Source: Eledone cirrhosa (Eukaryota). Taken from it: 64,000 bases of DNA. The stretch lies in assembly GCA_964016885.1 (NCBI GenBank), contig OZ024741.1, forward strand, positions 193,316,001 through 193,380,000, given 5' to 3'. The translations under genes and the position numbers were made by a program. The notes below the pieces were generated by a model. The model saw nothing but the letters and a program-made list of their open reading frames with translations, was not told the origin of the DNA and searched no databases. This document shows positions 19,640 to 63,360 of the stretch, piece by piece. Positions within the stretch are counted from its first letter, which is position 1. Every line of letters begins with the position of its first letter.

Positions 19640-19956
<317 letters not shown>

Positions 19957-22383: not shown

Positions 22384-23118
22384 CAATATATTTAGAAACA
22401 CACAGATACATGCGGACACACACATATATACATGAATGCATCCGCACCCAACTGTGAGTTAAGCAGTTTAGGTATGATACATTTTATTACTAATTATATC
22501 TAAATGTTTCTTCTCTCTTCATAATGTATTTTTAACTCTGATACTGGTTCAGTCTAGTTCAACTGAATTGGTCTGTCCCAGTCATTCATTGAGCAACATC
22601 GGTGAAGTTGGCACCCTTAACTCACAGTTGGGTGCGGATGCATTCATGTATATATGTGTGTGTCCGCATGTATCTGTGTGTTTCTAAATATATTGTTAAT
22701 AACTCCCTCTGGTCGAGCAATCTTTGAAGTGTGGGGACAGCTGGAAAGCTTCCATTACTCATACTTCTCGCCTTCTTCACCACCTCTTCTGCGGCCTCGA
22801 TATAAATACCCCCTCCGCCTCCGTGGTATTTTCTTCGAGGTTATAAGAGGCTTGGCTCTGTTTCTCGACCGTTATATCGCGTGACTATCTCCCCCTCCGC
22901 CTTTTGGGATTCTTTCTCACGTCGTGTAGACGCGTTCTTGAGACTAGTAAAATGAGGTATCCTCTTGATAAGTCGGCAGACCTCGCAAGGACTCTATATC
23001 TTTATGATATATTGTTTTTGTTTATGCCACGAAACTACGTAGTCGAGGAATTTAGGAGCAGTTTAGGTATGATACATTTTATTACTAATTATATCTAAAT
23101 GTTTCTTCTCTCTTCATA

Positions 23119-45241: not shown

Positions 45242-45243
<2 letters not shown>

Positions 45244-45371
45244 CGAAGGAAATGTGGTAAGGAACCAGGTGGACCATAACGCACCAAAGTACTCAATACT
45301 TGGGGTAGTAGAGTGGGTAATAGGAACCAGTAAGACCCCGACGGCTGAGCTCAAGCCGTTTCGACGGCTAA

Positions 45372-45373
<2 letters not shown>
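45242..45373 (-). mobile_element. Short Penelope-like element truncated in hammerhead stem II
   Basis: Nearly identical to 19640-19772, ends at GACGGCTAATTC, and sits inside (TA)n. Confidence 0.75.
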
Positions 45374-45418
<45 letters not shown>

Positions 45419-56095: not shown

Positions 56096-56137
<42 letters not shown>

Positions 56138-56139
<2 letters not shown>

Positions 56140-56337
56140 CAAAGGAAATGTGGTAAGGAACCAGGTGGACCATAACGCACCAAAGTACTCAATACTTAGG
56201 GTAGTAGAGTGGGTAATAGGAACGAGTATGACCCCGACGGCTGAGCTCAAGCCGTTTCGACGGCTAATTCTGGACTCATTTTGTCCAAATTTAGCCGTCG
56301 AAACGGCTTGAGCTCAGCCGTCGGGGTCCTACTCGTT

Positions 56338-56341
<4 letters not shown>
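56138..56341 (-). mobile_element. Short Penelope-like element with fold-back at hammerhead stem II
   Basis: Same family as 19640. The palindrome centre (56276-56282) is the loop of an imperfect 17-bp hairpin directly abutting GAAA. Confidence 0.75.
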
Positions 56342-56376
<35 letters not shown>

Positions 56377-58459: not shown

Positions 58460-58800
58460 TCAAGTAGCATAGTAAATATGGTGCAAGGTACTGTAGACCC
58501 CCACTTCCCTTGGTCATGAATGACCATGGGTTTGCACCTAGAAATCTCCCCTTCAGGTCTCAAGCTCGGACAAGATGTCACCCATGCATAACAATCTCCT
58601 CTCTCCACGCCACTGATGTTGTCCAAGGGAAAGGTAATGGCCAATACGTGGCGTCACAACTAATTTTTTTCCAGTTAAGTGAACTGGAGCAACTTGAAAT
58701 AAAGTCGCTTGCTCAAGTCTTGAAATAAAGTCGCTTGCTCAAGTCACATGGTACAGACCGGTCCGGGAATCGAACTCACAACCTTATGAATGTGAGCCCA
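58460..58800 (-). mobile_element. SINE/RTE-tail-like repeat
   Basis: Ends with ccgggaatcgaactcacaacctta (tRNA-like head on the minus strand) and has an internal 26-bp tandem duplication ttgaaataaagtcgcttgctcaagtc. Confidence 0.6.
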
Positions 58801-58893
58801 ACCAAGAAGTTAGCAATTCTTGTCTTTTCACCAGCACCGTGTTATATGTAAATAGATAGCACCAGGTAGAAACCACATATTTTTGTCACAATT

Positions 58894-61413
58894 CTAAAAC
58901 TCCCAATAACCCCTACTGGCTGTTTTAGGTGCTATAGTTCTGTTAACCATATTAGGTGTAATATGTGCAACAATTCTGTAAACCATACTAGCTGTAGTAG
59001 GTAGCAGAGATATGTAAACCATACTAGCTGTAGTAGGTAGCAGAGTTCTGTAAACCATACTAGCTGTAGTGGGTAGCAGAGATATGTAAACCATACTAGC
59101 TGTAGTAGGTAGCAGAGATATGTAAACCATACTAGCTGTAGTAGGTAGCAGAGTTCTGTAAACCATACTAGCTGTAACAGGTAGCAGAGTTCTGTAAACC
59201 ATACTAGCTGTAGTGGGTAGCAGAGTTATGTAAACCATACTAGCTGTAGTAGGTAGCAGAGTTCTGTAAACCATACTAGCTGTAGTGGGTAGCAGAGTTA
59301 TGTAAACCATACTAGCTGTAGTGGGTAGCAGAGTTCTGTAAACCATACTAGCTGTAGTAGGTAGCAGAGTTCTGTAAACCATACTAGCTGTAGTAGGTAG
59401 CAGAGTTCTGTAAACCATACTAGCTGTAGTAGGTAGCAGAGTTCTGTAAACCATACTAGCTGTAGTAGGTAGCAGAGTTCTGTAAACCATACTAGCTGTA
59501 GTAGGTAGCAGAGTTCTGTAAACCATACTAGTTGTAGTAGGTAGCAGAGTTCTGTAAACCATACTAGCTGTAGTAGGTAGCAGAGTTCTGTAAACCATAC
59601 TAGCTGTAGTAGGTAGCAGAGTTCTGTAAACCATACTAGTTGTAGTAGGTAGCAGAGTTCTGTAAACCATACTAGTTGTAGTAGGTAGCAGAGTTCTGTA
59701 AACCATACTAGCTGTAGTAGGTAGCAGAGTTCTGTAAACCATACTAGCTGTAGTGGGTAGCAGAGTTCTGTAAACCATACTAGCTGTAGTGGGTAGCAGA
59801 GTTCTGTAAACCATACTAGCTGTAGTAGGTAGCAGAGTTCTGTAAACCATACTAGCTGTAGTAGGTAGCAGAGTTCTGTAAACCATACTAGCTGTAGTAG
59901 GTAGCAGAGTTATGTAAACCATACTAGTTGTAGTGGGTAGCAGAGTTATGTAAACCATACTAGTTGTAGTGGGTAGCAGAGTTCTGTTAACCATACTAGC
60001 TGTAGTAGGTAGCAGAGTTATGTAAACCATACTAGCTGTAGTAGGTAGCAGAGTTCTGTAAACCATACTAGCTGTAGTAGGTAGCAGAGTTCTGTAAACC
60101 ATACTAGCTGTAGTAGGTAGCAGAGTTCTGTAAACCATACTAGTTGTAGTAGGTAGCAGAGTTCTGTAAACCATACTAGCTGTAGTAGGTAGCAGAGTTC
60201 TGTAAACCATACTAGCTGCAGTAGGTAGCAGAGTTCTGTAAACCATACTAGTTGTAGTAGGTAGCAGAGTTATGTAAACCATACTAGCTGCAGTAGGTAG
60301 CAGAGTTCTGTAAACCATACTAGTTGTAGTAGGTAGCAGAGTTCTGTAAACCATACTAGTTGTAGTAGGTAGCAGAGTTCTGTAAACCATACTAGTTGTA
60401 GTAGGTAGCAGAGTTCTGTAAACCATACTAGCTGTAGTGGGTAGCAGAGTTATGTAAACCATACTAGCTGTAGTAGGTAGCAGAGTTATGTAAACCATAC
60501 TAGCTGTAGTAGGTAGCAGAGTTCTGTAAACCATACTAGCTGTAGTAGGTAGCAGAGTTCTGTAAACCATACTAGCTGTAGTAGGTAGCAGAGTTCTGTA
60601 AACCATACTAGCTGTAGTAGGTAGCAGAGTTATGTAAACCATACTAGTTGTAGTAGGTAGCAGAGTTCTGTAAACCATACTAGTTGTAGTAGGTAGCAGA
60701 GTTCTGTAAACCATACTAGCTATAGTAGGTAGCAGAGATATGTAAACCATACTAGCTGTAGTGGGTAGCAGAGTTATGTAAACCATACTAGCTGTAGTAG
60801 GTAGCAGAGATATGTAAACCATACTAGCTGTAGTAGGTAGCAGAGTTCTGTAAACCATACTAGCTGTAGTAGGTAGCAGAGTTCTGTAAACCATACTAGC
60901 TATAGTAGGTAGCAGAGTTCTGTAAACCGTACTAGTTGTAGTAGGTAGCAGAGTTCTGTAAACCATACTAGTTGTAGTAGGTAGCAGAGTTCTGTAAACC
61001 ATACTAGTTGTAACAGGTAGCAGAGTTCTGTAAACCATACTAGCTATAGTAGGTAGCAGAGTTCTGTAAACCGTACTAGTTGTAGTAGGTAGCAGAGTTC
61101 TGTAAACCATACTAGCTGTAGTAGGTAGCAGAGTTCTGTAAACCATACTAGCTGTAGTAGGTAGCAGAGTTATGTAAACCGTATTAGCTATAGTAGGTAG
61201 CAGAGTTCTGTAAACCATACTAGCTGTAGTGGGTAGCAGAGTTATGTAAACCATACTAGCTGTAGTAGGTAGCAGAGTTCTGTAAACCATACTAGCTGTA
61301 ACAGGTACAACAAATAGTTCTTTGAACAATACTAGCTGTAACACGTAACACAATTTGGTAAACCATTTCAATTGTGATAGGTACTCCAATTCTGTGCACC
61401 TTACTAGTTGCAA
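58894..61413 (-). CDS. Possible repeat-protein ORF (SMVYRTLLPTTA)n, 839 aa; coding status unproven
   Basis: The frame is open across the whole array and the diverged flanking units stay stop-free. An ATG in CACCATGG context lies at 61495 in the repeat frame but is separated by a 4-bp insertion at ~61310. Confidence 0.25.
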   Translation of the reverse strand: MQLVRCTELEYLSQLKWFTKLCYVLQLVLFKELFVVPVTASMVYRTLLPTTASMVYITLLPTTASMVYRTLLPTIANTVYITLLPTTASMVYRTLLPTTASMVYRTLLPTTTSTVYRTLLPTIASMVYRTLLPVTTSMVYRTLLPTTTSMVYRTLLPTTTSTVYRTLLPTIASMVYRTLLPTTASMVYRTLLPTTASMVYISLLPTTASMVYITLLPTTASMVYISLLPTIASMVYRTLLPTTTSMVYRTLLPTTTSMVYITLLPTTASMVYRTLLPTTASMVYRTLLPTTASMVYRTLLPTTASMVYITLLPTTASMVYITLLPTTASMVYRTLLPTTTSMVYRTLLPTTTSMVYRTLLPTTTSMVYRTLLPTAASMVYITLLPTTTSMVYRTLLPTAASMVYRTLLPTTASMVYRTLLPTTTSMVYRTLLPTTASMVYRTLLPTTASMVYRTLLPTTASMVYITLLPTTASMVNRTLLPTTTSMVYITLLPTTTSMVYITLLPTTASMVYRTLLPTTASMVYRTLLPTTASMVYRTLLPTTASMVYRTLLPTTASMVYRTLLPTTASMVYRTLLPTTTSMVYRTLLPTTTSMVYRTLLPTTASMVYRTLLPTTASMVYRTLLPTTTSMVYRTLLPTTASMVYRTLLPTTASMVYRTLLPTTASMVYRTLLPTTASMVYRTLLPTTASMVYRTLLPTTASMVYITLLPTTASMVYRTLLPTTASMVYITLLPTTASMVYRTLLPVTASMVYRTLLPTTASMVYISLLPTTASMVYISLLPTTASMVYRTLLPTTASMVYISLLPTTASMVYRIVAHITPNMVNRTIAPKTASRGYWEF

Positions 61414-61899: not shown

Positions 61900-63360
61900 T
61901 TGTTCAAATAAACATCAAGCCATTACCTGCAGCCTCAGATATTCAAAATGTATCGGAGGGTTCTTGCAAGCATGCCATTTGAAGTGTTCCAAAAAGGGGT
62001 CTGGACTAATGTTTTTTAACCATGCTTGAAACCTCCAATGCTCCAATGACAATCGGGACGACTTTCATCTCAGGTCAGTCCCAGAACTTTTGTATCGTGG
62101 CGGCACCCTTAGAGATAGTATTAGTATTCTTTTTCGGGACTCTAAATTATTATTTCGTATTAGTTTACTTTTTTACACTGGGTGGTTGCTGGCCTTGTGC
62201 CTGGGGTAGAAACCTTTATTTATTATTTCGTGGTAGTTTCTTTAGTATTTTGGCCCCTCACTTGTTGACCCGTCACCGTAAGATATACTCGGTTTATTAC
62301 TTATACCTCTTAAAAGGGTCTCATTATAATTCCGTCCCACCTAGTATATATATTTTTAGCCTAGCAGTACCAGTGAGAGACTTAGATCGTAGTAACCAGA
62401 AATTGTTTTGTTTTTTTTTACATTTAATTGCTTTTTAACACTCTCAGTATTTTTCTATATATTTACCCCTTATTGTTCTACTTACTGTTTCGACTTCCTC
62501 CCCTCCCCCTCCCTAGTATCTTCTTTGACCTCATGCCCAGCTGTAGTCGGCACTATCAACGCATGAATGGGTCTCCTCCACCCCTCTCCCTCTTTCTCCT
62601 ACTGGCAGGTTTAGCTACTCCTTCCCACCACAAATTGCCATCATAGAATTATTATGTCTCAACAACAAACTTTTGACCAATCCCTGTGACAATCACTTTG
62701 ACCATATATGGAATTACCCCTTGAGAAGCTCGGCTATTCAAATACCAGGATCAAAATGTTCATTTAGTCCAGAATTAGCCGTCGAAACGGCTTGAGCTCA
62801 GCCGTCGGGGTCCTACTCGTTCCTATTACCCACTCTACTACCCTAAGTTGGTGCGTTATGGTCCACCTGGTTCCTTACCACATTTCCTCCGTTATATATA
62901 TATCTTTCTCTACAGATGCTACAGAGTGAGCTAGCCTCCTCCTTGTCAATATGGTGTTTCACCCACTTCGTTCTGTGCAGTCAATACCATTTACTCTCTA
63001 GCTTTTTTAAGGGCTCTTCTTTTTAACCAGCTCCATTTCTGTGGATCACTGAATTCCGTTTTCTTAAAAAGGTGTTATGAAGGATTTTTTTCATAAATGT
63101 TGCTCCTCCTCTTTGTTGTTACTTCCTTCTTGGATATACCCTGGTCTTCTGATTCAGTACAACTTTAAGCATCGTCCCCCTACTCTCAGGCACATATTTG
63201 TGTAGACAGGTCTTCTCCATCTGAACACAGTCCTCTATGCTGATAAGACCTCTTCCGCCTTCAGATCTCTTTAAGTATAGTCTATCAACATCACTCCTCT
63301 TCTGGAACATTCTGTAGCTAGCCATTAGCTTCCCAGTCTTTCTATCCATTTCTTTTTGTT
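61900..63360 (-). mobile_element. R4/Dong-like non-LTR retrotransposon, decayed and interrupted
   Basis: SDVDRLYLKRSEGGRGLISIED; WSWLK..LK..(T)AQNE; RHN; MKVVPIVIGAL at ~62050-62090. Confidence 0.75.
62765..62893 (+). mobile_element. Short Penelope-like element starting inside hammerhead stem II
   Basis: gtccagaattagccgtc-GAAA-cggcttgagctcagccg-TC-ggggtcc...ccgttatatata. Confidence 0.75.

What the first reader, a model, noticed from the sequence alone, without database searches (positions are those of the whole stretch)
56138..56341. Genomic palindrome built on a hammerhead stem II: candidate ribozyme-hairpin-primed retroinsertion
Seen: on the minus strand the element reads ...GACGGCTAAATTTGGAC-aaaatga-GTCCAGAATTAGCCGTC-GAAA-CGGCT(tgagctc)AGCCG-TC-GGGGTC.... 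That is hammerhead stem II, the GAAA box, a full stem III and a canonical GUC cleavage triplet. Where CTGAnGA and stem I should lie 5' of stem II, there is instead an almost exact inverted copy of the downstream sequence. The central 17-bp hairpin is imperfect (one A-A mismatch, and one pair that is G-U only in this orientation), as a natural RNA stem would be, while the outer ~45-bp arms differ at one base, as a fresh DNA copy would. Known: Penelope-like elements carry type I hammerheads in their terminal repeats and often have inverted 5' ends. Inference: the cDNA stops at the far side of stem II, folds back on it and self-primes second-strand synthesis, so the ribozyme structure sets the insertion architecture.
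Basis: partly seen in the sequence, partly recalled or inferred. Interest (0 to 1): 0.8.

Follow-up and report, generated by a model that had tools for sequence, protein, structure and literature searches.

The report
Head-to-head stub of a Penelope-like retrotransposon
This palindrome is one of tens of thousands of short head-to-head insertions of a Penelope-like retrotransposon that carries a variant hammerhead ribozyme, and the copies likely stop where the element's RNA begins rather than at a ribozyme hairpin, so they may record how these elements copy themselves.

Summary
The palindrome is real (59-bp arms, 7-nt centre). It is a 5'-truncated, head-to-head insertion of a ~3.4-kb Hydra-clade Penelope-like element (PLE) in (TA)n; about 24,700 arms match one 18-mer exactly. 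The hammerhead half is genuine, but the parent's core is UUGAnAA (U3:A8 variant), not CUGAnGA, and the true 5' strand of stem II lies about 40 nt further upstream. Breakpoints are strongly clustered: 37 of 44 unselected arms end between -30 and -47 (0 = first base after GUC), at a conserved initiator-like TYAGTYC. Five other hammerhead families in this genome show little or no such stop. A smaller peak lies exactly at the predicted cleavage site. Pairs are almost always one +20-ended and one +100-ended arm, and either can be the longer. Best model: two cDNAs primed on opposite strands of the nicked target run off the RNA's 5' end (transcription start, sometimes ribozyme cut) and are joined. 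Fold-back is not excluded. The architecture, the U3:A8 variant and the self-priming idea are already published; the RNA-end reading was not found in print.

The parts
56138..56276 (-). Tailed arm: element positions -41 to about +100 (0 = first base after GUC), sense on the minus strand
56138..56216 (-). PLE 'tail' (about 80 nt); in full elements it is the sequence that follows the 5' pseudo-LTR and leads to the ORF
   Evidence: L106; ends at TAT|(AT)n
56231..56270 (-). 3' half of the type I hammerhead: stem II 3' strand 56270-56259, GAAA 56258-56255, stem III 56254-56238, cleavage after 56236, stem I 3' strand 56235-56231
56276..56282 (.). Junction TCATTTT. It matches the parent's own -47..-41 (TCATTTA) at 6 of 7 bases when read in the sense of the tail-less arm; alternatively an added G after A(-41) plus filler
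56283..56341 (+). Tail-less inverted arm: -40 (likely -47) to +20, ending GTTCCTAT|(AT)n; private changes at 56288 and 56290
56099..56137 (.). (TA)n target, left
56342..56375 (.). (TA)n target, right
62716..62811 (+). Complete parent hammerhead in a longer copy: stem I ACCCC 62716, core TTGAGAA 62721, long stem II, initiator-like TTAGTCC with A at 62766, GAAA 62784, cleavage after 62806
62085..62895 (+). Longer 5'-truncated copy of the parent's 3' UTR with tail (left end approximate, read by eye against L106)
19640..19835 (.). Second head-to-head short insertion of the same family (other subfamily; both arms share its variants)
45242..45374 (-). Solo tailed arm starting at -35 between (TA)n tracts

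Best explanation
This is a short, head-to-head insertion of a Hydra-clade Penelope-like retrotransposon in a (TA)n repeat, likely made when two cDNAs primed on opposite strands of the cut target ran off the 5' end of the element's RNA and were joined. Shown: the parent (RT plus C-terminal GIY-YIG-type endonuclease, 1.2-kb 3' UTR, U3:A8 hammerhead); two fixed 3' ends (+20, +100), both at TAT next to (AT)n; one of each per insertion; 5' ends piled up at -30..-47, with a minor peak at the GUC cleavage site. Inferred: transcription starts at the initiator-like TYA(-41)GTYC inside the long loop of stem II; RT starts internally at +20 and +100 (as shown in vitro for another PLE), so on such RNAs it can make only 60- and 140-nt cDNAs; their 3' ends anneal or are end-joined with 0-1 nt of microhomology or a short filler; a minority of templates begin at the ribozyme cut; long copies come from RNAs that read through this site.
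For: Parent ORF and motifs. Wall: 37 of 44 unselected arms that reach -30 end by -47 (mode -41, 7 arms), 7 go further, in 1.4 Mb of evenly spaced stretches; genome-wide 24,704 arms hold -40..-23 against 4,280 that read through to -64 in the main subfamily (the latter misses other subfamilies). The same wall, at the same A, in the oldest subfamily, whose -40..-31 sequence differs but which keeps TTAGTTC. The apical hairpin there is poorly kept (78% paired against 99% for basal stem II) and the ribozyme region folds no better than shuffles (z -1.0). Other hammerhead families are copied through stem II. Cleavage-site peak: of 62 distinct loci in the first 100 of 167 rows, 47 solo copies start at exactly 0, 12 at -1..-4, 3 are remnants of the other arm (tallied by eye; binomial). 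Pairs: 109 of 123 are tail + tail-less, 2 tail-less twice, 0 tailed twice, 12 untyped. Tail-less arm longer in 11 of 27 unselected short pairs and 2 of 10 long direct pairs, one by 2 kb. Direct joins to another PLE family's reverse strand (L034, L036). In vitro precedent: both strands cut and extended, two internal RT starts bounding the tail (PMC11167929).
Against: No RNA data show a start at -41. Ends spread over -30..-47 and overlap the 3' strand of a weak apical hairpin (-44..-37), so a structural stop is not excluded. The two arms are nearly always of one subfamily (2 possible exceptions in 109) and some share rare variants, as fold-back predicts. The tailed arm is the longer one in 15 of 27 short and 8 of 10 long pairs. 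Common junctions such as TTCTG|AGTCC are tight 3-4 nt loops that fold-back would give, and their mirror forms could arise by later deletion in an unstable palindrome. The extra G before A(-41), a possible cap signature, is weak: 11 of 70 solo junctions, 3,253 G against 650 A genome-wide, but about half of 18 inspected G cases are letters of the other arm and extra G also occurs at position 0 (5 of 47). The cleavage-site pattern cannot see starts at +1 and beyond, and stem III or the G run could also halt RT there.
Confidence: 0.6

Rival explanations
1. One cDNA primed at +100 runs to the RNA's 5' end, folds back through 1-2 bp near its own 3' end, copies itself to +20 and is joined to the target there; later deletions at the centre blur the symmetry. 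The stop is the RNA end, not stem II.
For: One tail per insertion and same-subfamily arms follow automatically; tight-loop junctions recur; tailed arm more often longer; self-priming was proposed for PLE junction palindromes (PMC3846280).
Against: Tail-less arm longer in 11 of 27 short pairs and in L104 (2.7 kb against 0.7 kb) and L198; +20 is also the end of solo and long copies; in the window copy the centre reads as parent sequence on the tail-less arm.
Confidence: 0.25
2. One reading: RT stalls in the upper part of the natural stem II of a read-through RNA, and the ribozyme fold fixes where inversion happens.
For: Ends do lie on the 3' strand of upper stem II (-45..-35); older subfamilies have a better apical hairpin; family F has 3 of 14 arms broken within stem II.
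Against: RT must first pass stems I, III and basal II; the wall stays put while the apical hairpin decays; sister family A, with the same U3:A8 core and long stem II, is complete in 10 of 10 arms; no short junction seen holds the natural loop plus natural 5' strand.
Confidence: 0.1
3. The 204-bp unit is a fixed non-autonomous element (MITE- or SINE-like) that spreads as a palindrome, or an assembly artefact.
For: Forty near-identical full-length matches at 92-100%.
Against: Nearly every copy has its own junction; arm lengths run from tens of bases to 3 kb; short-read contigs of one sample show the same head-to-head joints at varied places (possibly the source sample). Short copies may still be re-transcribed; not tested.
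Confidence: 0.05

Closest known systems
Hydra clade of Penelope-like elements (Craig et al. 2021, PMC8557442; section 11, passages and supplement part 2 read)
   Same: Single ORF, C-terminal endonuclease, DKT, CxCX5C linker, CxxC and CxH, (TA)n targets, hammerhead near the 3' end, inverted 5'-truncated copies, tail on one end.
   Different: About 3.4 kb with a 1.2-kb 3' UTR (most are under 3 kb); RWR for RWK; tail about 80 nt (30-40 described); all listed Hydra hammerheads have CUGAnGA and short stem II, this one UUGAnAA and a 56-nt stem II.
PLE hammerheads with U3-A8 core (Cervera and de la Pena 2014, PMC4209133; parts 1-2 of 4 read)
   Same: U3-A8 for C3-G8, G10.1-C11.1, palindromic loop 3, nearby motifs on opposite strands.
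   Different: Described in Schistosoma Cercyon elements with minimal helix III; here a 5-bp stem III and a long stem II that holds the putative start site.
PAc (Poseidon) in vitro mechanism (Frangieh et al. 2024, PMC11167929; parts 1-2 of 4 read)
   Same: Two internal RT starts bounding the tail; both target strands cut and extended; uncleaved RNA is the main template.
   Different: They found no homology between start site and target and no RNA ends at the ribozyme site; here both ends lie at TAT next to (TA)n and a minority of copies begin exactly at the cleavage site.
Adineta Penelope inverted-junction palindromes (Arkhipova et al. 2013, PMC3846280; passages and discussion read)
   Same: Head-to-head pLTRs with palindromes at the junction; self-priming proposed.
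   Different: A handful of copies and an antisense-template proposal; here thousands of junctions point to sense-RNA ends.
L1 twin priming (recalled; only search listings seen)
   Same: Two target nicks prime two cDNAs that are joined as an inversion.
   Different: In L1 the two pieces cover different parts of the RNA; here both arms copy the same -41..+20 stretch.

Membership tests
Penelope-like element, Hydra clade | [quoted passage not shown] | tested here: met
   FDIxxYY and YRDD, then VIY..YIG..R; 251 homologues, one with PF01541 at the aligned place. Pfam gave no hit on the query pieces themselves; all copies read have stops or frameshifts.
Penelope-like element, Hydra clade | DKT motif, RWK motif, CxCX5C linker, CxxC and CxH, no CCHH | tested here: met
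   SDKTG and RWR, CNCPDGSIC, CNLC, CKH against the list; RWK is RWR, as in the aligned homologues; absence of CCHH judged by eye.
Penelope-like element, Hydra clade | Insertion into (TA)n; inverted or tandem 5'-truncated copies; tail on one end | tested here: met
Penelope-like element, Hydra clade | Placement in the Hydra clade by RT phylogeny | not tested
   No reference Hydra proteins were fetched; assignment rests on motifs.
Type I hammerhead ribozyme | Core C3/U3-U-G-A-N-G8/A8-A, GAAA, UH, three stems | tested here: met
   Parent only: 73 long arms (42 distinct) give TTGAGAA 61, TTGATAA 4, TTGAAAA 3, CTGAGAA 2, other 3, so position 7 varies; stems I, II, III 88-99% paired. The finding itself lacks the 5' half.
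Type I hammerhead ribozyme | Covariation support for the stems | tested here: inconclusive
   Eight close sequences, no excess over shuffles; sister family A keeps the layout with other letters.
Type I hammerhead ribozyme | Self-cleavage after GUC | not testable with these tools
   Indirect only: 47 of 62 solo copies near the site start exactly there.
Non-LTR retrozyme | Tandem units each with a complete type I hammerhead | tested here: not met
   Short copies are inverted or solo and lack the 5' core; definition from 10.64898/2026.07.22.740005 (part 1 of 5 read).
Naiad PLE | N-terminal endonuclease, no canonical hammerhead | tested here: not met
   Endonuclease motifs are C-terminal.

The most novel reading that the evidence does not exclude
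The thousands of short copies are a genomic record of this PLE's RNA ends: a transcription start inside the ribozyme's stem II loop and, less often, the ribozyme cut itself. They would give in vivo evidence that a PLE hammerhead cleaves, and that the inverted-repeat-plus-tail structure of PLEs comes from one RNA copied twice from two start sites on opposite target strands. Starting transcription inside stem II would also leave the 5' copy of the ribozyme incomplete, so that only the 3' copy can cut.
Probability: 0.4. Interest if true: 0.7.

Novelty: new variant of a known kind. Interest (0 to 1): 0.45.

Why it matters
How PLEs make their inverted ends and one-sided tail, and whether their hammerheads cut in vivo, are called open in PMC8557442, PMC4209133 and PMC11167929. 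A family with tens of thousands of independent junctions and exact landmarks (-41, 0, +20, +100) gives base-level predictions for 5' RACE and for the existing in vitro PLE assay. As a single locus it is an ordinary repeat fragment.

Tried and rejected
Rfam at gathering score: nothing. CTGANGA upstream of the hairpin: 13 hits, none a parent ribozyme of this family. Idea that the +6 mismatch marks two different templates: rejected, the variant is rare and about even on both arm types; the excess comes from the query used. Neptune and Naiad assignments: dropped on motifs. Cap-G signature: only weak support (the test, p 0.03, left C-preceded junctions out of the denominator, and C is templated in one subfamily). 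double-counted arms through a shifted reference and was redone. One search's extension overruns some breakpoints by a few bases. RNA: no RNA holder listed. Contig depth steps up near 62760, but that depth is no copy number. An oriented junction search over the whole genome was not run, so arm asymmetry rests on 27 unselected pairs. Earlier scan notes: nothing. Literature searches found no paper reading PLE 5' ends as transcription-start or cleavage-site run-off; subscription journals and bioRxiv supplements are not covered, and Repbase was not available.

Full report
Observation. The quoted sequence is at 56138-56341. It folds as one hairpin with 59-bp arms and a 7-nt centre, far beyond chance (z -18.4), between two (TA)n tracts. 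Positions below are counted from the first base after GUC (0 = window 56235 on the minus strand).

It is a repeat. A search of the own 3.0-Gb genome found 1,106 candidates; the 40 scored match at 92-100%. In most of the 30 fetched copies the arms pair perfectly up to the centre, and the centre differs from copy to copy. So the 'imperfect natural stem' is a perfect inverted copy with two private changes. The one outer mismatch is a rare variant: 88 places, about half on each arm type. An exact 18-mer at -40..-23 occurs 24,704 times. In 140 evenly spaced 10-kb stretches there are 51 arms that hold the -23..+5 anchor, in 28 stretches.

The parent. Window 62085-62895 continues upstream of the hairpin and belongs to a large family (2,244 candidates). 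Long copies are about 3.4 kb. They encode an RT (SDKTG, FDIxxY, YRDD), a CNCPDGSIC linker and a C-terminal endonuclease with CNLC and CKH; 251 homologues were found, one with a Pfam GIY-YIG hit at the aligned place. These are the motifs given for the Hydra clade of PLEs, which also target (TA)n (PMC8557442). No tree was built. In L106 a pseudo-LTR is followed by the tail and then the ORF, as in other PLEs.

The ribozyme. The parent body has no CTGAnGA, and the 13 genome-wide hits of such a pattern are junction accidents or joins to other elements. The complete motif is ACCCC (-91), TTGAGAA (-86), a long stem II (-79..-24), GAAA, stem III with a palindromic loop, TC, GGGGT. Position 7 varies among subfamilies (G 61, T 4, A 3 of 73 long arms), as in a hammerhead core. 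U3-A8 is a published PLE variant (PMC4209133). Basal stem II is 99% paired in eight copies, the apical hairpin 78%; covariation is not significant. A sister family repeats the layout with other letters (window 22959-23050).

Where arms end. 3' ends fall mostly at +20 or +100, both at TAT before (AT)n. Of 123 head-to-head pairs, 109 have one of each, 2 have two +20 ends, none has two tails, 12 were untyped (this set mixes selected and unselected loci). 5' ends are clustered: 37 of 44 unselected arms that reach -30 end by -47, mode -41. Long inversions break anywhere from -57 to -3,099. The wall sits on TTAGTCC, TCAGTCC or TTAGTTC, which fit the initiator consensus YYANWYY (recalled) with A at -41, and it is unchanged in the oldest subfamily. 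Penelope has an internal promoter with an initiator in its pseudo-LTR (PMC2377424, passages). Other hammerhead families here are copied through stem II: 10/10, 3/3, 12/12, 23/23, 11/14 (counted over all DNA held). This speaks against a ribozyme-made stop.

A second peak. Solo copies that start near the cleavage site are rarer (51 against 405 on the reverse strand), but 47 of 62 distinct ones start exactly at 0 and 12 at -1..-4 (first 100 of 167 rows, tallied by eye). This fits reverse transcription of cleaved RNA to its end. The pattern cannot see starts downstream of 0, so a broader stop at stem III or the G run is not excluded.

Mechanism. In vitro, a Poseidon PLE cuts and extends both target strands and starts at two internal sites that bound the tail (PMC11167929). 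Applied here: on an RNA that begins at -41, starts at +20 and +100 give 60- and 140-nt cDNAs that run off the end; joined head to head they are the 204-bp element. Fold-back of the tailed cDNA predicts that the tailed arm always reaches further upstream. It does in 15 of 27 unselected short pairs; the tail-less arm does in 11, one is equal; among long direct pairs 8 against 2. In the window copy the centre reads as parent -47..-41 on the tail-less arm (6 of 7 bases). Against this: arms share subfamily and sometimes rare variants, tight-loop junctions recur, and later deletions could mirror them. The extra G before A(-41) is suggestive only. No RNA could be examined. I put two joined run-off cDNAs at 0.6, run-off plus fold-back at 0.25, a structural stop in stem II at 0.1.

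What is known. Inverted 5'-truncated copies, the one-sided tail, (TA)n targeting, opposite-strand hammerhead pairs, the U3-A8 core and self-priming at PLE junctions are all in print (PMC8557442, PMC4209133, PMC3846280). A Hydra family is listed from an octopus, with a different ribozyme; the host here was not identified. Eight searches found no report of PLE 5' ends piling up at an initiator or at the cleavage site.

Verdict. Interest 0.45.

Noticed in passing
window 37484-38047: Second palindrome with 276-bp arms next to (TA)n, from another family; it carries a U3:A8 hammerhead-like motif (TTGAAAA, short stem II, GAAACCGGTC) at about 37897-37937 and breaks about 130 nt upstream of it.
   Followed up: partly
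window 22959-23050; L209, L144, L176, L177: Sister family with TTGATAA core, long stem II and palindromic stem III; complete in 10 of 10 arms.
   Followed up: partly
L216:4836-4892, L173, L175, L275, L145: Hammerhead-like family whose stem III is TATATA, with stem I resuming after it.
   Followed up: no
L034, L036, L032: Arms of this family joined directly to the reverse strand of other hammerhead-bearing elements, suggesting two different RNAs at one insertion.
   Followed up: partly
all DNA held (about 2 Mb): At least ten distinct hammerhead-like families, several with the U3:A8 core that Rfam and CUGAnGA scans miss.
   Followed up: no
L228:3400-4100: Complex insertion that includes sequence just downstream of the tail (start of the ORF side) in reverse, suggesting further start sites or template jumps.
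   Followed up: no
L268, L272, L276, L278, L280: A very young subfamily (CAGCTGTC, CTTACTGG) with identical arms; its long parent was not identified, so short copies may be spreading on their own.
   Followed up: no
window 58799-61300: Tandem array of a 36-bp unit, about 65 copies.
   Followed up: no
L109:5597-8618; L111, L115, L123: Long ORFs of other retroelements (a 1,007-aa frame in L109; endonuclease-RT frames in the others) beside the PLE copies.
   Followed up: no
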